A stretch of 32,340 bases of DNA, taken from the IMG/VR virus record IMGVR_UViG_2711768060_000010; one strand, given 5' to 3'. A program made the translations under genes and the position numbers. Positions 16,193-29,465 of this stretch are shown here, piece by piece. This DNA comes from a virus. Taxonomy: Duplodnaviria; Heunggongvirae; Uroviricota; Caudoviricetes. Positions within the stretch are counted from its first letter, which is position 1. Each line of letters opens with the position of its first letter. Under the pieces are notes generated by a model that was not told where the DNA came from, made no database searches, and was given only the letters and a program-made list of their open reading frames with translations.

Positions 16193-16644
16193 CAAAGCGT
16201 ATTTCCGGTATGTCGTTTGATACCTATCTGGACGGCGATCTGATCCACATCGAAAAAATTTCGCTGGATATCACGGACAACAGCGCCGCCGCGCAGACCC
16301 GTGGAGTGCCGGATGGCCATGTTGATGGTGACGTGGCCGCAGAGGGTGAAATTGAGGTCAGTTCGAAAGTGCTGGCCGTACTGACAGCGAAAGCCCGCGC
16401 GGCGGGTTCGTGGCGCGGTATCGAACCGCTGGACTTTCTCTTCTATGCCAAAGCAGGCAATGAAGAGGTCAAAGTTGAGTCGTTCGGCAATAAATTGCAG
16501 CTGAGTAATCTGCTGGATATCGATCCGAAGGGTGGCGGCGTTGCCACGCACAAAATCAAATATTTTGTGACCAGCCCGAAGTTCGTAAACATCAACGGCG
16601 TGCCGTATCTGGAAGCGGAAGCCACAGAAAACCTGATCGGTTAA
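16189..16644 (+). CDS. Putative tail tube protein (start trimmed to ATG 16189)
   Basis: 151-aa ORF; GGAGG 7 nt upstream of ATG 16189, which overlaps the sheath stop; size and order match a tube protein. Confidence 0.5.
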   Translation: MTKRISGMSFDTYLDGDLIHIEKISLDITDNSAAAQTRGVPDGHVDGDVAAEGEIEVSSKVLAVLTAKARAAGSWRGIEPLDFLFYAKAGNEEVKVESFGNKLQLSNLLDIDPKGGGVATHKIKYFVTSPKFVNINGVPYLEAEATENLIG

Positions 16645-16947: not shown

Positions 16948-17285
16948 CTCTGAGCGAAAAGCAGCAGCTGTTTGCCGTGATGGTGGCAGATCTTATTCAC
17001 TGGGCGCAGGAACACGGCTACCGCCTGACATTTGGCGAAGCGTACCGCACACCGGAACAGGCCGCGCTAAATGCCAAAAGTGGCAGCGGTATTTCAAACA
17101 GCCTGCATACGCAGCGCCTGGCCGTGGATTTTAATCTGTTCGTAAATGGGCAGTACAAGACCCGTACGGAAGATTATCTGCCGCTGGGTGAATACTGGGA
17201 GTCGCTGGGCGGTTCGTGGGGTGGGCGCTTCAAATCACGTCCGGACGGCAATCACTTCAGCCTGGAACATAACGGGGTGCGCTGA
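16944..17285 (+). CDS. Endolysin, peptidase M15 family (L-alanyl-D-glutamate or D-Ala-D-Ala peptidase type)
   Basis: 113-aa ORF with zinc-ligand spacing typical of M15 peptidases (SLHTQRLAVDFN ... DGNHFSLEH); sits between holin and spanins. Confidence 0.65.
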   Translation: MTLSEKQQLFAVMVADLIHWAQEHGYRLTFGEAYRTPEQAALNAKSGSGISNSLHTQRLAVDFNLFVNGQYKTRTEDYLPLGEYWESLGGSWGGRFKSRPDGNHFSLEHNGVR

Positions 17286-17653
17286 TGAGCATCCGCCAGT
17301 GGTTGCTGGTTGTGGCAGTGGCGTTTGTGTGGGGCTGGCTGGTCGCGGACTGGCGCAGGGATAGCCTGGAGCTGGCGATCAATACAGCGGCACAGGTTGC
17401 GGGGGATAAATCCCGCAATGCTATGCAGCTGATTGCCCGCGATTCAGCCAGGGGGCTGGAAGATAAGCTGGAGGCGCTGAACAATGGCAGACCGAAGGAA
17501 ATCAGGACTGAAATTATTAAGCCAGTTTTTACTAATGTGTGCGTGTCTGATGAGTTTATCGGGATGTTTAACGCCTCCGTCGAAAACACCGAACGTGTCT
17601 TATCAGGAAAACCTGAAGCGAAAATGCCCAACGGAAAACCTTCCGCGCATTAA
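17285..17653 (+). CDS. i-spanin (Rz-like, N-terminal membrane anchor)
   Basis: 122-aa ORF with N-terminal TM helix (WLLVVAVAFVWGWLVA) and charged periplasmic region; follows the endolysin. Confidence 0.55.
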   Translation: MSIRQWLLVVAVAFVWGWLVADWRRDSLELAINTAAQVAGDKSRNAMQLIARDSARGLEDKLEALNNGRPKEIRTEIIKPVFTNVCVSDEFIGMFNASVENTERVLSGKPEAKMPNGKPSAH

Positions 17654-17789
17654 AGGTAATACCGGGGCGGATGTTGCCGCCCCTGCTATTGAATATCAGA
17701 ATTTATATTCTGTTTGCGCAGCGCGTCACAATGCGCTGATTGATGAAATTGAATTAAGAGAGAAATCAGAAAATGGAAAACCAGATTAA
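17484..17789 (+). CDS. o-spanin (Rz1-like outer-membrane lipoprotein), overlapping the i-spanin gene in the +1 frame
   Basis: Signal peptide ending in lipobox LSGC, Pro-rich mature region; starts inside the i-spanin gene in a different frame and extends past it. Confidence 0.5.
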   Translation: MADRRKSGLKLLSQFLLMCACLMSLSGCLTPPSKTPNVSYQENLKRKCPTENLPRIKGNTGADVAAPAIEYQNLYSVCAARHNALIDEIELREKSENGKPD

Positions 17790-18033
17790 ATTAACCGTGG
17801 GCGGCGTGGATATTACTTTTGAGCCGAACCAGACCGCTTATAACAAATTCATTAACGAAATGGCGATGGATAATAAAGTTGCCCCGGCGCATAACTATCT
17901 GACGCGCATTGTGGCGGCGGAAACAAAAGACGCACTGGCGGAAATTCTAAAACGTCCGGGCGCTGCGCTTCAGCTTGCGGGAAAGGTAAATGAGATTTAT
18001 GCGCCTGAACTGGAAATTGAAGTAAAAAACTAA
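17773..18033 (+). CDS. Tail assembly chaperone (G/E-like), upstream part of a frameshifted pair
   Basis: 86-aa ORF immediately upstream of the tape measure gene; ends at a slippery heptamer followed by a stop. Confidence 0.6.
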   Translation: MENQIKLTVGGVDITFEPNQTAYNKFINEMAMDNKVAPAHNYLTRIVAAETKDALAEILKRPGAALQLAGKVNEIYAPELEIEVKN

Positions 18034-18224
18034 CAAAGCGAGTCCGGGCAATTGAAAACAACGGACTCGACCAGTATTTAATTTTACGCCGCCACTATTT
18101 ACCCCACGGGGATGATTCAGTTGATGATATTGCAGCTGCAATATGGCTGGACAATCGCCACTGGGATAATACGCGCATTGCTATTGCAAACGGAATAAAC
18201 ACTGCTTTTAAAGGCGCTGAATGA
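18024..18224 (+). other. Programmed -1 ribosomal frameshift site (A_AAA_AAC, 18024-18030) and -1-frame extension of the tail chaperone (GT/E'-like product)
   Basis: Hand translation: zero frame reads GTA AAA AAC TAA; after a -1 slip the frame is open for 64 codons (LTKRVRAIENNGLDQYLILRRHYLPHGDDSVDDIAAAIWLDNRHWDNTRIAIANGINTAFKGAE) and stops at TGA 18222-18224, overlapping the tape-measure ATG 18221-18223. Confidence 0.6.
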
Positions 18225-20287
18225 AACAGTTAGATTTTACATTAAGCCTGATCGATAAATTGTCACGCCCGTTAAAACAGGCGCAGGGCAGCGTGACCGG
18301 CTTTGCGGAAAAATCAAACGCAGCGTTTAAGCAGATTGGCGGCGGGGCGCTGGCGCTGGTCGGAACGGGGATGGCCATTAAAAGCGCTTTGTCTCCGGCC
18401 ATTGAGATGTATGACGCGCTGAACGATGCGGCCGCAAAAGGCATCGACAACACTGCGCTTAAGACGGTGCAGCGCGATGCGCTGACGTTCAGCATGACCT
18501 ACGGTGCCAGCGCACTGGATTTTGTTAAGTCCACTGAGGAGATTAACACCGCCATTGCCGGGCTGACCGGAACGGAACTGCCGAAAGTGACCAAAACCGC
18601 CAATACCCTGGCGTTTGCCCTCAAAGCCACCTCCGCGGATACGGCGGAGTTTATGGGGCAAATGTTCGGCAACTTCTCGTCAGATGCTGAGCGGCTGGGC
18701 AAAGTCCAGTTTGCGGAACAGCTGGCGGGCAAGATGGTTTTCATGCGCAAAACCTTTGGCACCGAAATGGCCACTATTAAAGACCTGATGGAAGGCGCGC
18801 GCGGCGTGGGTACAAATTACGGCGTAGGGCTTGATGAACAGCTGACCGTGCTGGGGCAACTGAACCGCACGCTGGGTTCTGAAGCCAGTAGTGCCTATGA
18901 AGGCTTTATGACCGGGGCGATTGAAGGCGGCAAAAAGCTGGGGCTGTCCTTCACGGACTCCACCGGGAAAATGCTGTCCATGCCTGAAATGCTGATCAAG
19001 CTGCAGGGCAAATATGGCAAGAGCCTGGAAGGGAACCTGAAAGCACAGGCGGAGCTGGATGAAGCCTTTGGTGACAGTTCGGCAGTGGTTAAGCATCTTT
19101 ATGGCAACGTGGCGCTGCTGCAGAGAAACATCACCGAACTGGGCGGCGCTGACGGGCTGAAGCGTACACAGGAAATGGCCAGCAAGATGGTGAAGCCGTG
19201 GGATCGGTTCGTGGCTATTCTGACGGCGATTAAAACCGTGATTGGGCTGACGCTGATCCCGGTACTGTATCCGGTGCTGAATCGCCTGGCGGATATGGGG
19301 CAGACGTTTGCACGCTGGATGCAGCTGTTTCCCAATATCGCGCGTGTGGTGGGTTATGCAGCGATGGCACTGCTTAGCTTTGCCGCCGTGGGTGCAGTGG
19401 TCAACATCCTGATGGGTGTTTCTGCTTTCGTTATGGGTGGCCTGCGCGGGATCTGGGTGGCGCTGGCCTCAGTGACGCGCATTTACACCGCCACTATCTG
19501 GCTGGCACAGAAAGCCGTTGTTGTCTGGAATATCACCCTGGGTGCGTTGCGAGGCATCCTGCTGGCGGTGCGTATGTCGGCAATTATGGCCGGGGTGGGC
19601 ATCAATCTTATGAGCCTGCCGATTCTGCTGGTTATCGGGGCGATTGCTGCGCTGGCCGCTGGTTGTTACCTGCTGATCCGTAACTGGGAAGCGATTAAAA
19701 CCGCTGTCATGAATACGGAAGCCTTTGCAGCAGCTGCAGCAGTGGTTAAGTGGCTGGCGGGTATTTTTGCCAGCGCCTGGCAATACATCAGCGATGGATG
19801 GAATGCCTTTACTGCATTGCTGGCCGGGTTCTCTCCTGCGCAGGCGCTTAGGGGAATGGCCACGGGCATCATGACGATGTTTGATAACGTCTGGCAGACC
19901 ATCAAAGACAGTTTCCTTAAATCATGGAACTGGATTGTAGAGAAGCTAAATAAAATACCGGGCGTGAATATAGGGCTGGCAGAAACTTCAGCGCAAGCAG
20001 CTGCGGTTCCGGTGCCTGAATTAAAACAGGTTGCTAAAGCAGAGGGGGCAGCATCATCCCTGCCACAAAATATTAACGCCAGTAATCCGCAGCCGCTTCT
20101 GACTTCAAATACTCTTTCCACAGGTGGTGAGTTAAAGGGCATTGAAAAGGGCGGTCTTTCAAAAACAATTAACAGCAATTCTAAATCTGTTGTTGATAAC
20201 AGTAAAAAAATTGAAAACGTTAATATTTATCCAAAAGAAATGTTAACGCCTGGCCAGTTAATGGAGTATCAGGAGTTGGGCGCATGA
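18221..20287 (+). CDS. Tail tape measure protein
   Basis: 688-aa ORF, Ala/Gly-rich with a central hydrophobic block; follows the chaperone/frameshift pair, the canonical position for a tape measure gene. Confidence 0.85.
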   Translation: MKQLDFTLSLIDKLSRPLKQAQGSVTGFAEKSNAAFKQIGGGALALVGTGMAIKSALSPAIEMYDALNDAAAKGIDNTALKTVQRDALTFSMTYGASALDFVKSTEEINTAIAGLTGTELPKVTKTANTLAFALKATSADTAEFMGQMFGNFSSDAERLGKVQFAEQLAGKMVFMRKTFGTEMATIKDLMEGARGVGTNYGVGLDEQLTVLGQLNRTLGSEASSAYEGFMTGAIEGGKKLGLSFTDSTGKMLSMPEMLIKLQGKYGKSLEGNLKAQAELDEAFGDSSAVVKHLYGNVALLQRNITELGGADGLKRTQEMASKMVKPWDRFVAILTAIKTVIGLTLIPVLYPVLNRLADMGQTFARWMQLFPNIARVVGYAAMALLSFAAVGAVVNILMGVSAFVMGGLRGIWVALASVTRIYTATIWLAQKAVVVWNITLGALRGILLAVRMSAIMAGVGINLMSLPILLVIGAIAALAAGCYLLIRNWEAIKTAVMNTEAFAAAAAVVKWLAGIFASAWQYISDGWNAFTALLAGFSPAQALRGMATGIMTMFDNVWQTIKDSFLKSWNWIVEKLNKIPGVNIGLAETSAQAAAVPVPELKQVAKAEGAASSLPQNINASNPQPLLTSNTLSTGGELKGIEKGGLSKTINSNSKSVVDNSKKIENVNIYPKEMLTPGQLMEYQELGA

Positions 20288-28346: not shown

Positions 28347-29465
28347 ATGACTGAAAAATTCACCGCAATTTTGTTAGACACAAGTATCTACGATCAGTAC
28401 GGATTAAAGCTTGAGAAAGGACTACTGGGTAAGCTTTCCCAGTTCAGCCGAACCCCGACAACGTTTTTGATACCGGATGTAATTTACAACGAAGTCAAAA
28501 ATCATCTTGAAAGAAAAATCAGGACTTCACGTGGCTCTCTTGAGAAAGCTTTCGAAGAGGCTGGCGATCATCTTTTTTTTGATGGAAGCGAACTAAATGA
28601 CGCAAAAAGAACATTGATTGAAGGCAGAGAAGTTGAAGGATTAGGAAAGAGTAGATTAGACAGATTTGTTGGCGTAACAGATGCGGAGGTTTTGACTACT
28701 GGGGATTACGTTTCGGTACCTGAACTACTTGAACGATATTTCTCTTCTGAAGCTCCTTTCGCAGATACAGGGAAGAAAAAAAATGAGTTTCCTGATGCGA
28801 TCACATTAATGGCCGTCCAAGCTTGGGCTGAAGAGAATGGTGAAAATGTTCTTGCCGTAGCAAGAGATGACGATTGGCAGAGATTTTGTGCTGATGCTGA
28901 GAATTTGCATTATGAACCTGACTTATCAAAGGCTTTAGCACACTTCAATGAAGAAACCGCACCTTATGAACTAATTGATAACTTACAAAAAGCACTTGCT
29001 GAAGGACAGGCCGGTAAATTCTTGCATGATGTTGCTGTACACCTTGAGTCAACCTTTGACGGTTTTGCACCAGAACAAGAGGCAGATTCATATTTGTACT
29101 GGGAGGCTGATGGATGCTCAGGTGGATTTGAAGATTTTGAGTTTACAGATAATTACTTCACTGTCATTGACAAGGATGAAAACTGGGTTGTTTTAGAAGC
29201 ATTTGCAGAAATTTCACTTTACGCAGATGGTGATTTCTCCCTATCAGTTTACGATTCATTCGATAAGGATCATGTCTACATGGGGTCAATCACCAAGCGT
29301 GCCGAGGAAACATATACATCCAGAATACTAATAACAATCTCCGGAGACTTGTCAGGTTCTATAGATGATTTGACCGTTGAAGATGTGGAAGTAATAGAGC
29401 GTCCGACGTCGATGGATTTTGGGGAGCTGGAATTAGCATATGAACCTGACGAGCAAGATTTGTAA
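28347..29465 (+). CDS. PIN-like nuclease domain protein with acidic C-terminal domain of unknown function (accessory/cargo gene; candidate single-gene defence or toxin)
   Basis: 372-aa ORF with AAGG RBS; PIN-fold hallmarks in order: hydrophobic strand then Asp (AILLDTSIY), FLIPDVIYNEV, and NEFPDAITLMAVQAWAEENGENVLAVARDDDWQRF; about 35-40 percent GC by eye against about 55-60 percent in the prophage; isolated behind a terminator and a roughly 630-bp leader. Confidence 0.6.
   Translation: MTEKFTAILLDTSIYDQYGLKLEKGLLGKLSQFSRTPTTFLIPDVIYNEVKNHLERKIRTSRGSLEKAFEEAGDHLFFDGSELNDAKRTLIEGREVEGLGKSRLDRFVGVTDAEVLTTGDYVSVPELLERYFSSEAPFADTGKKKNEFPDAITLMAVQAWAEENGENVLAVARDDDWQRFCADAENLHYEPDLSKALAHFNEETAPYELIDNLQKALAEGQAGKFLHDVAVHLESTFDGFAPEQEADSYLYWEADGCSGGFEDFEFTDNYFTVIDKDENWVVLEAFAEISLYADGDFSLSVYDSFDKDHVYMGSITKRAEETYTSRILITISGDLSGSIDDLTVEDVEVIERPTSMDFGELELAYEPDEQDL

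What the first reader, a model, noticed from the sequence alone, without database searches (positions are those of the whole stretch)
18024..18224. Programmed -1 frameshift joining the tail chaperone to a 64-codon extension that ends on the tape-measure start codon
The chaperone ORF ends ...GTA AAA AAC TAA; A_AAA_AAC is a canonical X_XXY_YYZ slippery heptamer sitting directly on the stop codon. By hand translation the -1 frame stays open for 64 codons and terminates at TGA 18222-18224, overlapping the tape-measure ATG. The ORF track misses this because the extension has no start codon of its own. It is the conserved G/GT (lambda) or E/E' (P2) arrangement.
Basis: seen in the sequence. Interest (0 to 1): 0.5.

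Follow-up and report, generated by a model that had tools for sequence, protein, structure and literature searches.

The report
Unannotated tail-chaperone frameshift in HP1-like prophage
The prophage's tail-assembly chaperone gene carries a conserved -1 ribosomal frameshift site that should add a 64-residue extension ending at the tape-measure gene: the familiar lambda G/GT or P2 E/E' trick, but databases list the extension as a separate protein of unknown function.

Summary
The chaperone gene (17773-18033, Pfam Phage_TAC_10) ends GTA AAA AAC TAA. A_AAA_AAC (18024-18030) sits in the 10-nt window where both frames are open. The -1 frame then runs 64 codons with no ATG/GTG/TTG to TGA 18222-18224, overlapping the tape-measure ATG.

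The extension is real coding sequence. It matches Pfam DUF6890 (E 2e-23) and shows third-codon-position variation in the -1 frame.

In 46 genomes and 80 viral contigs found through the chaperone protein alone, 124/126 carry AAAAAAC and all keep the 62-64-codon -1 frame. HP1, phiO18P and Vibrio, Pseudoalteromonas and Pseudomonas phages each have one in-phase A_AAA_AAN. Synonymous variation is near zero across the heptamer.

An 8-bp hairpin 8 nt downstream is kept, with compensatory changes, in the window's subclade only.

No record examined annotates a frameshift. PGAP calls a "DUF6890 family protein" with ad hoc ATT/CTG starts. No in-frame chaperone-DUF6890 fusion appears among 1.84 billion representative proteins.

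Verdict: a new, unannotated member of a well-known kind, unrelated in sequence to P2 E/E'. One correction: classical tandem slippage predicts the junction ...EVKN-LTK..., not ...EVKK-LTK....

The parts
17773..18033 (+). Tail assembly chaperone gene (0 frame, 86 aa), the G/E-like product
18018..18020 (+). Last stop codon (TGA) in the -1 frame upstream of the shift site. It limits the zone where a -1 shift is productive to 18021-18030.
   Evidence: Translation of the -1 frame. The overlap is 10 nt.
18024..18030 (+). Slippery heptamer A_AAA_AAC, in phase with the chaperone frame (codons AAA 18025-27 and AAC 18028-30)
   Evidence: Read directly. AAAAAAC is present in 44/46 genome loci and 80/80 viral contigs anchored by tblastn. 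Third-position diversity of the last three chaperone codons is 0.00, 0.00 and 0.14, against 0.34-0.74 for most neighbouring codons. A_AAA_AAC is a proven -1 site in IS1 and was measured at 0.16-0.74% in E. coli (PMC4066793).
18031..18033 (+). 0-frame stop codon (TAA) of the chaperone, directly 3' of the heptamer
   Evidence: The stop adjoins the heptamer in all but one relative examined. It varies among TAA, TGA and TAG, while the -1 frame keeps a Leu or Ile codon there.
18030..18224 (+). -1 frame extension: 64 codons plus the TGA stop. Predicted fusion CDS = join(17773..18030,18030..18224), 150 aa.
   Evidence: Open frame with no ATG/GTG/TTG. Codon-position diversity 0.29/0.22/0.58 in this frame, the same as the chaperone body at 0.31/0.25/0.57. 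The other two frames carry on average 2.9 and 5.5 stops. PHROG 7050.
18084..18215 (+). DUF6890 (PF21830) domain inside the extension (fusion residues 105-148)
   Evidence: Pfam E 1.9e-23, profile positions 1-44 of 44.
18039..18069 (+). Candidate frameshift-stimulating hairpin: stem CGAGUCCG (18039-46) with CGGACUCG (18062-69), a 15-nt loop, starting 8 nt after the heptamer
   Evidence: MFE -14.7 kcal/mol, z -2.95. RNAalifold gives the same helix. 99.3% of cells pair in 19 distinct sequences; the closing pair is AU 12 / GC 7 and all other changes go to G-U. In 35 further unique viral sequences 276/280 cells pair, with a G-U intermediate and a second compensatory pair. The helix is specific to this subclade and only moderately stable against local background (16th percentile).
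18221..20287 (+). Tape measure protein gene. Its ATG overlaps the extension's TGA (ATGA).
   Evidence: Pfam PhageMin_Tail. TIGR01760 and phrog_28. PGAP places the CDS at the same coordinates.

Best explanation
The window is a complete HP1-like (Peduoviridae) prophage of E. coli LR-51.

Most ribosomes translating the chaperone gene stop at TAA 18031 and make the 86-aa chaperone. A small fraction slip back one base on A_AAA_AAC (18024-18030). They then read CUA at 18030 onward and make a 150-aa fusion. Its C-terminal 64 residues are the DUF6890 domain, and translation ends on the tape-measure start codon.

By analogy with lambda gpG/gpGT and P2 gpE/gpE+E', the shared N-terminal part would coat the tape-measure protein. 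The frameshift-only domain would recruit the tail tube protein, with the two products made in a fixed ratio set by slip efficiency. The 8-bp hairpin 8 nt downstream probably raises the efficiency of this intrinsically weak heptamer in the window's subclade.

Shown here: the anatomy, coding selection on the extension, conservation of the slip motif, the absence of its own start codon, the chaperone fold, and hairpin covariation.

Inferred: that slippage actually occurs, its rate, the hairpin's stimulatory role, and the roles of the two domains in assembly.
For: Anatomy: the heptamer occupies the only 10-nt zone where both frames are open.

Coding status of the extension:
- Pfam DUF6890, E 1.9e-23.
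- Third-position diversity peaks in the -1 frame, 0.29/0.22/0.58.
- The other frames are full of stops.

Conservation in samples anchored on the chaperone protein, not on the motif:
- 44/46 genome loci have AAAAAAC, one has AAAAAAA, and one keeps an in-phase A_AAG tetramer. All have a 62-64-codon -1 frame.
- 80/80 viral contigs have AAAAAAC and a 64-codon extension. 78/80 end in ATGA on the tape-measure start.
- Yersinia vB_YenM_324, HP1, phiO18P, two Vibrio phages, a Pseudoalteromonas phage and a Pseudomonas phage each have exactly one in-phase A_AAA_AAN in the overlap.

Synonymous suppression at the site:
- In the chaperone body Lys is AAA 74%, Asn is AAC 46%, and V/I/L codons end in A 13% of the time.
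- At the site, all 56 sequences analysed have an A-ending codon followed by AAA. These 56 had been picked by the motif, so the counts describe the motif. The unbiased conservation counts are those.

No start of its own:
- Window: none. Relatives: the first in-frame start codon is most often at codon 47 or 51.
- PGAP's 'DUF6890 family protein' starts at ATT 18051 here, and at different places elsewhere, giving lengths of 27-71 aa.
- Of 63 hits among 1.84 billion representative proteins, 61 are 26-81 aa with ragged N-termini. None is an in-frame chaperone fusion.

Further support:
- Chaperone fold.
- Same layout and sizes as annotated P2 E (91 aa) / E+E' (142 aa) / T.
- Hairpin.
- No promoter, relevant terminator or Rfam family in the gap.
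- A_AAA_AAC is a proven E. coli -1 site in IS1 (PMC4066793).
Against: - There is no direct evidence of the fusion protein.
- A_AAA_AAC is a weak motif in E. coli: 0.16% alone and 0.74% even with the IS3 pseudoknot (Table S3 of PMC4066793). That is below the 1:30 gpGT:gpG ratio reported for lambda (PMC5009743).
- The hairpin is not unusually stable against local background (16th percentile). It is absent from many lineages that keep the heptamer: the family-wide median percentile is 0.34.
- The hairpin arms lie in conserved codons (R-V and G-L), so part of their conservation comes from protein constraint.
- A stop codon directly after a heptamer lowered -1 frameshifting in a bacterial test system (PMC4373837).
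Confidence: 0.9

Rival explanations
1. DUF6890 is a separate small gene, translated from its own non-canonical start codon as PGAP annotates it (ATT at 18051 here, CTG or others elsewhere). No frameshift is involved.
For: RefSeq carries it as a stand-alone CDS in many genomes. Some phage records list a 47-aa ORF there. ATT initiation is known in E. coli: IS911 is cited in the reference list of PMC4066793.
Against: - The window has no ATG/GTG/TTG in the 64 codons.
- Annotated starts map to at least seven different positions, and two different starts are used for essentially the same E. coli sequence.
- The ATT codon is not conserved: it is ATC, ATA or CTT in relatives.
- Coding selection extends from the first codon after the heptamer, upstream of every proposed start.
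- This model does not explain the invariant heptamer or the suppressed synonymous sites.
Confidence: 0.04
2. The fusion arises by transcriptional slippage. RNA polymerase adds one extra A in the A6 run (18024-18029), giving an mRNA subpopulation that encodes ...EVKK-LTK... in a single frame.
For: A homopolymeric A run is present. Some relatives have A7. The product would look almost the same as the ribosomal frameshift product. Transcriptional slippage is used by bacterial IS elements and secretion genes (PMC5009743, PMC4256274).
Against: - From my own knowledge, efficient slippage by bacterial RNA polymerase needs runs of about 8-9 or more, and A6 is short.
- What is conserved is the phase-locked X_XXY_YYZ pattern with C at position 7, not the length of the run. 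Of the 126 protein-anchored loci, 124 have A6C and only one has A7.
- The Yersinia pekkanenii relative keeps only an in-phase A_AAG tetramer, which is a ribosomal slip motif (PMC4066793).
- A hairpin 8 nt downstream with compensatory changes fits a ribosomal stimulator.
Confidence: 0.04
3. The open -1 frame is a leftover that is not expressed. Only the 86-aa chaperone is made.
For: The motif is weak in E. coli. No expression data exist for this family in the literature searched.
Against: The 62-64-codon frame is intact in all 126 anchored loci, at down to 51% chaperone identity, and in phages of six further host genera. The codon-position pattern shows purifying selection. The family has its own Pfam and PHROG models.
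Confidence: 0.02

Closest known systems
Phage P2 gpE / gpE+E' (-1 frameshift at T_TTT_TTG, upstream of tape-measure gene T)
   Same: Same virus family (Peduoviridae) and a contractile tail. The chaperone is 86 aa against 91 aa, and the fusion 150 aa against 142 aa. In both, the extension lacks a start codon and its stop overlaps the tape-measure start. [quoted passage not shown]
   Different: - The protein families differ: Phage_TAC_10 + DUF6890 here, Phage_TAC_7 + Phage_P2_GpE in P2.
- No sequence similarity was detected (BLASTP E 0.08; hhalign probability 0.6%).
- The heptamer differs: A_AAA_AAC abutting the stop here, T_TTT_TTG 18 nt before the stop in P2.
- Here the lysis cassette sits between the tube and chaperone genes.
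- P2's frameshift is annotated and, according to its record, essential. This one is not annotated anywhere I looked.
Phage lambda gpG / gpGT (G_GGA_AAG; Levin 1993; Xu, Hendrix and Duda 2004, 2013, 2014)
   Same: The logic is the same. There is a chaperone and a frameshift-extended chaperone, both encoded just upstream of the tape-measure gene. The shift occurs at low frequency and sets a fixed ratio. The arrangement is conserved across long-tailed phages although the sequences differ (PMC5009743). The predicted chaperone fold matches the HK97 G-homologue structure 2ob9.
   Different: Lambda is a siphovirus, and this prophage encodes a sheath. There is no sequence relationship. Lambda's heptamer is among the most slippery in E. 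coli, whereas A_AAA_AAC is among the weak ones. Lambda's products have been studied biochemically; these have not.
IS1 insA-insB' -1 frameshift (A_AAA_AAC)
   Same: It uses the identical heptamer in E. coli and is a proven case of low-level programmed -1 frameshifting that makes a fusion protein (PMC4066793).
   Different: IS1 has no established stimulator. Here a conserved hairpin follows in the subclade. The proteins and the biology are unrelated.
Haemophilus phage HP1 orf26/orf27 region and other HP1-like phages (phiO18P, ESSI-2, vB_YenM_324, Vibrio and Pseudoalteromonas phages)
   Same: These are true homologues. They have the same chaperone and DUF6890 families, the same A_AAA_AAN site and the same -1 extension ending at or just before the tape-measure start.
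   Different: None of these records annotates a joined CDS. The extension is either left blank or listed as a short hypothetical or 'tail assembly chaperone' ORF. Their downstream RNA structures differ from the one in the window.

Membership tests
G/GT-type tail assembly chaperone frameshift (lambda G/GT, P2 E/E+E'; Xu et al. 2004) | Two overlapping ORFs lie directly upstream of the tape-measure gene and downstream of the tail tube gene | tested here: met
   The chaperone is 17773-18033, the extension runs to 18224, and the tape-measure gene starts at 18221. The tube gene (Phage_HP1_Orf24) ends at 16644, with holin, endolysin and spanin genes in between.
G/GT-type tail assembly chaperone frameshift (lambda G/GT, P2 E/E+E'; Xu et al. 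2004) | The second ORF is in another frame, lacks its own start codon and overlaps the 3' end of the first | tested here: met
   It is in the -1 frame with a 10-nt overlap and no ATG/GTG/TTG in 64 codons. Annotated starts in relatives are inconsistent.
G/GT-type tail assembly chaperone frameshift (lambda G/GT, P2 E/E+E'; Xu et al. 2004) | A slippery sequence lies in the overlap, in phase, and is conserved among relatives | tested here: met
   A_AAA_AAC at 18024-18030. It is present in 124/126 loci anchored on the protein. Each distant HP1-like phage has one in-phase A_AAA_AAN. Synonymous variation is suppressed there.
G/GT-type tail assembly chaperone frameshift (lambda G/GT, P2 E/E+E'; Xu et al. 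2004) | The upstream product has the tail-assembly-chaperone fold | tested here: met
G/GT-type tail assembly chaperone frameshift (lambda G/GT, P2 E/E+E'; Xu et al. 2004) | The fusion protein is made at a low, fixed ratio and both products are needed for tail assembly | not testable with these tools
   This needs reporter assays, proteomics and genetics. Published rates for this heptamer in E. coli are 0.16-0.74%.
G/GT-type tail assembly chaperone frameshift (lambda G/GT, P2 E/E+E'; Xu et al. 2004) | The frameshift-only domain binds the major tail (tube) protein, and the shared domain binds the tape-measure protein | not testable with these tools
   The extension model is helical but of low confidence (pLDDT 68). 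No complex prediction was possible.
P2 gpE / gpE+E' protein families (Pfam Phage_TAC_7 + Phage_P2_GpE) | Significant sequence or profile match to those families | tested here: not met
   The window's proteins hit Phage_TAC_10 and DUF6890 only, even at E up to 10 for the extension. P2 E+E' hits Phage_TAC_7 and Phage_P2_GpE. BLASTP E 0.08. hhalign of a 16-sequence DUF6890 alignment against P2 E' gives probability 0.6% (the P2 side was a single sequence).
Pfam DUF6890 (PF21830) / PHROG 7050 | Score above the curated threshold over the full model | tested here: met
   82.4 bits against a cutoff of 23.6, profile positions 1-44 of 44. phrog_7050 E 5.7e-22.
Hairpin-stimulated bacterial -1 frameshift signals (dnaX and IS3-type) | A stable structure lies 5-9 nt downstream of the heptamer and is maintained by compensatory changes | tested here: inconclusive
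   In the window's subclade the feature is met: 8-nt spacer, 8 bp, 99.3% paired, AU/GC switching with a G-U intermediate, and a second compensatory pair. However, the stability is ordinary against local background, and many lineages with the same heptamer have no such helix.

The most novel reading that the evidence does not exclude
Probability: 0.15. Interest if true: 0.4.

Novelty: new member of a known kind. Interest (0 to 1): 0.25.

Why it matters
Biologically this is expected. Nearly all long-tailed phages make a frameshift-extended tail chaperone, so a specialist would not be surprised.

The practical value is in annotation:
- Pfam DUF6890 and PHROGs 7050 and 1214 are listed as 'unknown function'.
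- RefSeq's pipeline gives thousands of enterobacterial genomes a stand-alone 'DUF6890 family protein' with invented ATT, CTG or internal starts. One cluster alone is seen on 829 contigs.
- HP1-like phage records leave the region blank or call it hypothetical.

Reading it as join(chaperone, -1 extension) gives the domain a role. It removes a class of wrong gene starts and supplies a clean positive case for frameshift predictors.

The strict conservation of a low-efficiency heptamer next to the stop codon is a small open question about how the product ratio is set.

Tried and rejected
1. To build a profile of P2 E', I scanned viral contigs with the P2 E' peptide. All 80 loci returned were 100% identical, so no profile could be made. 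The comparison of DUF6890 with P2 E' therefore rests on a profile against one sequence and on Pfam scans.

2. I tried to predict the structure of the whole fusion from one alignment of the fusion, chaperone homologues and DUF6890 proteins. MAFFT stretched the chaperones across the extension, so I dropped that alignment and modelled the two parts separately.

3. The extension model was of low confidence (pLDDT 68, pTM 0.37), so I ran no fold search on it.

4. Literature:
- 'DUF6890' gave no papers.
- Searches combining HP1, frameshift, tail chaperone and Peduoviridae found no description of this frameshift in HP1-like phages.
- Xu et al. 2004 is not in the library. I could not check whether HP1 was among its 28 phages.

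5. Rfam and the promoter and terminator scans found nothing relevant in 17400-18500.

6. Antisense ORFs 17852..18061 and 17947..18141 were rejected. Their third codon positions fall on the least variable column of the alignment.

7. I checked a family-wide downstream structure and rejected it. Only some lineages have a stable helix, and the helices are not homologous.

8. Searches used loci picked by a motif pattern, so their counts of the heptamer itself are circular. The unbiased counts are those.
Full report
**What is in the sequence.**

The ORF at 17773..18033 encodes an 86-aa protein ending ...EIEVKN, with codons GTA AAA AAC TAA. The heptamer A_AAA_AAC occupies 18024-18030 and is in phase with that ORF. 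The stop codon is 18031-18033.

The -1 frame has a TGA at 18018-18020. It is then open from 18021 to the TGA at 18222-18224. Both frames are therefore open together for only 10 nt, and the heptamer lies in that stretch.

From CTA at 18030 the -1 frame runs 64 codons. It ends in ATGA, sharing bases with the ATG of the 688-aa ORF 18221..20287. None of the 64 codons is ATG, GTG or TTG. This is why the ORF list shows a 187-nt gap there.

For this sequence alone the chance estimate is modest:
- About 0.7% for a classic heptamer in one of the two in-phase positions.
- About 4% for a 64-codon open off-frame run.

**Context.**

The window is 100% identical to the chromosome of E. coli LR-51, NZ_AP027550.1. 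It holds a complete P2-family prophage of the HP1 type. In order it contains:
- integrase, CI and CII regulators, Dam methylase and the gpA replication protein;
- portal and terminase on the minus strand;
- scaffold, capsid, small terminase and head completion protein;
- tail completion proteins R and S, sheath (DUF2586) and tube (Phage_HP1_Orf24);
- holin, M15 endolysin and spanins;
- the chaperone, the tape-measure protein, DUF2590, baseplate J and I, and the tail fibre.

The nearest named phages are Escherichia phages ESSI2_ev015, ev040 and ev129 (Quadragintavirus) and Cronobacter phage ESSI-2, at about 80% nucleotide identity.

**The upstream gene is a tail assembly chaperone.**

- It matches Pfam Phage_TAC_10 over its full length, E 1.3e-38.
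- An AlphaFold2 model built from 24 homologues has pLDDT 92: a beta-hairpin followed by four helices.
- The named matches among predicted viral structures are mainly tail assembly chaperones, with TM 0.6-0.69.
- The downstream gene is a tape-measure protein.

**The extension is coding sequence, read in the -1 frame.**

- The conceptual fusion matches Pfam DUF6890 (PF21830) at E 1.9e-23 over the whole 44-position model. The extension alone matches phrog_7050.
- Across 55 distinct relatives, mean pairwise diversity at codon positions 1/2/3 of the -1 frame is 0.29/0.22/0.58. The chaperone body in its own frame gives 0.31/0.25/0.57.
- The other two frames carry on average 2.9 and 5.5 stops over the same stretch.
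- The antisense ORFs in the region do not fit this periodicity.

**Conservation of the recoding site.**

Two samples were collected through the chaperone protein alone, not through the motif.

- *46 genomes* (Enterobacterales and Aeromonas, 51-89% chaperone identity). 44 have AAAAAAC immediately before the chaperone stop and one has AAAAAAA. One, Yersinia pekkanenii, has GTA AAG GAA TAA. That sequence still carries the in-phase tetramer A_AAG, the most slip-prone tetramer in E. coli according to PMC4066793. All 46 keep a 62-64-codon -1 frame. In nearly all of them it ends at or within a few bases of the tape-measure ATG (in the Aeromonas and Y. pekkanenii loci the ATG is not within the bases examined).
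- *80 viral contigs*. All 80 have AAAAAAC and a 64-codon extension. 78 end in an ATGA overlap with the tape-measure start.

The pattern extends to phages at 35-64% identity. Yersinia vB_YenM_324, Haemophilus HP1, Aeromonas phiO18P, Vibrio 1.202.O and yong1, Pseudoalteromonas PY3 and Pseudomonas UFJF_PfPro each have exactly one in-phase X_XXY_YYZ heptamer in the overlap. It is always A_AAA_AAN. In the Pseudomonas phage it is A_AAA_AAG, 21 nt before the stop.

Synonymous sites are frozen exactly at the heptamer. Third-position diversity of the last three chaperone codons is 0.00, 0.00 and 0.14, against 0.34-0.74 for most neighbouring codons. In the chaperone body, Lys is AAA only 74% of the time and Asn is AAC 46%. 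V/I/L codons end in A only 13% of the time. The loci were chosen by the motif, so its counts of the heptamer itself are circular. The unbiased numbers are those.

**No independent start.**

In relatives that have any in-frame ATG/GTG/TTG, the first is most often at codon 47 or 51. That would leave at most 17 residues.

RefSeq's pipeline nevertheless annotates a 'DUF6890 family protein':
- in LR-51 from ATT at window 18051 (57 aa);
- in other E. coli genomes as 46 aa and 27 aa.

Database entries range from 45 to 71 aa, with the first residue placed at seven or more different alignment positions. For essentially this same E. coli sequence there is both a 57-aa and a 47-aa version.

A profile search of 1.84 billion representative proteins found 63 hits. 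Of these, 61 are 26-81 aa with ragged N-termini. The other two are long proteins that look like chance matches. None is an in-frame chaperone-DUF6890 fusion. The top 120 chaperone homologues carry no DUF6890 domain either.

The domain is thus never found with a proper gene start and never fused in frame. This is what obligatory frameshift expression predicts.

**Downstream RNA structure.**

In the window, CGAGUCCG (18039-46) pairs with CGGACUCG (18062-69). The loop is 15 nt and the stem starts 8 nt after the heptamer. The MFE is -14.7 kcal/mol, z -2.95 against shuffles.

In 19 distinct sequences of the window's subclade:
- 99.3% of cells pair;
- the closing pair is A-U in 12 and G-C in 7, and is never broken;
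- every one-sided change goes to G-U;
- sliding the partner by one to three columns drops pairing to 4-40%;
- RNAalifold finds the same helix.

In 35 further unique viral sequences, 276 of 280 cells pair. There is a G-U intermediate between near-identical G-C and A-U sequences. There is also a second compensatory pair, G-C to A-U in L166.

The limits of this evidence are real:
- The arms lie in conserved R-V and G-L codons.
- The helix is only at the 16th percentile of stability against other 45-nt windows of the same locus.
- Lineages such as Providencia, Photorhabdus, Xenorhabdus, Serratia and Brenneria keep the heptamer without a comparable helix.
- Ewingella and Rahnella, and the Vibrio phages, have different and in some cases much stronger hairpins.

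I therefore treat the hairpin as a likely stimulator that is specific to this lineage. It is not a defining part of the signal.

**Mechanism.**

A -1 ribosomal slip on A_AAA_AAC is the best explanation. The motif is a proven -1 site in E. coli IS1 (PMC4066793). It is weak, however: 0.16% without a stimulator, 0.19% with the IS911 stimulators and 0.74% with the IS3 pseudoknot. A_AAA_AAG gives 0.29, 4.3 and 39% under the same conditions (Table S3).

The expected ratio of fusion to chaperone is therefore low. It is probably below the 1:30 reported for lambda and the two- to three-fold higher level of P2 (PMC5009743).

The stop codon directly after the heptamer is conserved in all but one relative examined. 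In a bacterial test system a stop in that position lowered frameshifting and made it sensitive to release factor (PMC4373837). Whether it has a role here is open.

One consequence for testing follows. With the classical tandem slip, AAC has already been decoded as Asn. The junction is then ...EIEVKN-LTKRVR..., that is join(17773..18030,18030..18224), 150 aa. Both peptides should be searched for, with a protease other than trypsin.

**Rivals.**

- *Independent initiation* (the RefSeq model). It fails on the missing and inconsistent starts, on coding selection upstream of all proposed starts, and on the unexplained frozen heptamer.
- *Transcriptional slippage on A6.* It would give almost the same protein and cannot be excluded from sequence alone. 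But the run is short. What is conserved is a phase-locked A6C rather than run length. One relative keeps only a ribosomal tetramer motif.
- *A dead remnant.* This is excluded by purifying selection across lineages sharing as little as about 35% identity.

**Comparison with known systems.**

The layout is that of P2 E / E+E' / T. There the chaperone is 91 aa and the fusion 142 aa, with the fusion's stop overlapping the start of T. The frameshift is annotated as a joined CDS.

The proteins are not detectably related:
- P2 E+E' is Phage_TAC_7 + Phage_P2_GpE; this one is Phage_TAC_10 + DUF6890.
- BLASTP gives E 0.08.
- hhalign of a DUF6890 alignment against P2 E' gives probability 0.6%.

So it works like G/GT and E/E+E' and meets every sequence-testable criterion of that arrangement. 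It is not a member of the P2 E/E' protein families. A 2023 analysis reached a similar conclusion about tail modules in general: those of the HP1 and P2 subgroups are much more diverged than the rest of the genome (PMC10612066).

**Novelty.**

The kind is textbook. For this family I found no record that annotates the frameshift. This covers HP1, HP2, phiO18P, ESSI-2, the ESSI2_ev phages, vB_YenM_324, Vibrio, Pseudoalteromonas and Pseudomonas phages, and the E. coli RefSeq genomes.

I also found no paper in the searchable library that describes it. A 2024 paper on an Aeromonas relative lists the extension as a 144-bp hypothetical ORF.

I could not read Xu et al. 2004, so HP1 may already be in its list of 28 phages.

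I rate this as a new, unannotated member of a known kind. Interest is low to moderate, and most of the value lies in annotation: DUF6890 and phrog_7050 are the frameshift-only domain of the HP1-type tail chaperone.

Noticed in passing
window 17979-17985: A second in-phase slippery heptamer lies inside the chaperone gene. It is G_GGA_AAG, the motif used by lambda G/GT and one of the most slip-prone in E. coli. A -1 slip there would meet TGA at 17991-17993 and give a truncated chaperone of about 72 aa. The motif is not conserved in ESSI2_ev015 or ESSI-2, so it is probably chance.
   Followed up: partly
window 17484-17789 (+): An ORF lies out of frame within and beyond the Rz-like gene 17285-17653. 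It encodes a lipoprotein-type signal (…LMSLSGC…) and gives a weak Pfam LysC/Rz1 hit. This looks like the o-spanin. The RefSeq record for LR-51 has no CDS there, while relatives annotate a 62-aa gene in the same place, named O-spanin in vB_YenM_324. Its stop overlaps the chaperone start.
   Followed up: partly
window 18051-18224; L004 1276-1416; L005 1424-1507: RefSeq's 'DUF6890 family protein' CDSs use an ATT start here and starts at other positions elsewhere. Their lengths range from 27 to 64 aa for the same conserved 64-codon frame. The 64-aa versions begin at the Leu codon directly after the heptamer. This appears to be a systematic annotation artefact affecting many genomes.
   Followed up: yes
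L050 (Yersinia pekkanenii), around 1736-1752: This is the only relative without the heptamer. Its chaperone ends GTA AAG GAA TAA, yet the 63-codon -1 frame is intact and an in-phase A_AAG tetramer remains. It may be a case of single-tRNA slippage or a decaying prophage.
   Followed up: partly
L006 and L038: Contigs labelled as Bacillota and Bacillales metagenome-assembled genomes carry this gammaproteobacterial prophage module, at 88% and 58% chaperone identity. They are probably mis-binned contigs.
   Followed up: no
window 28347-29465 (+): A 372-aa PIN_12-domain protein lies downstream of the tail genes, near the end of the prophage away from the integrase. It may be prophage cargo or a defence gene.
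   Followed up: no
L055 and L059 (Vibrio phages 1.202.O and yong1), just after the heptamer: These phages use A_AAA_AAA followed by a much stronger hairpin (45-nt MFE -23 to -26 kcal/mol, the most stable window in each locus). In E. coli assays A_AAA_AAA responds strongly to stimulators, so their frameshift rate may be much higher than in the enterobacterial lineage.
   Followed up: partly
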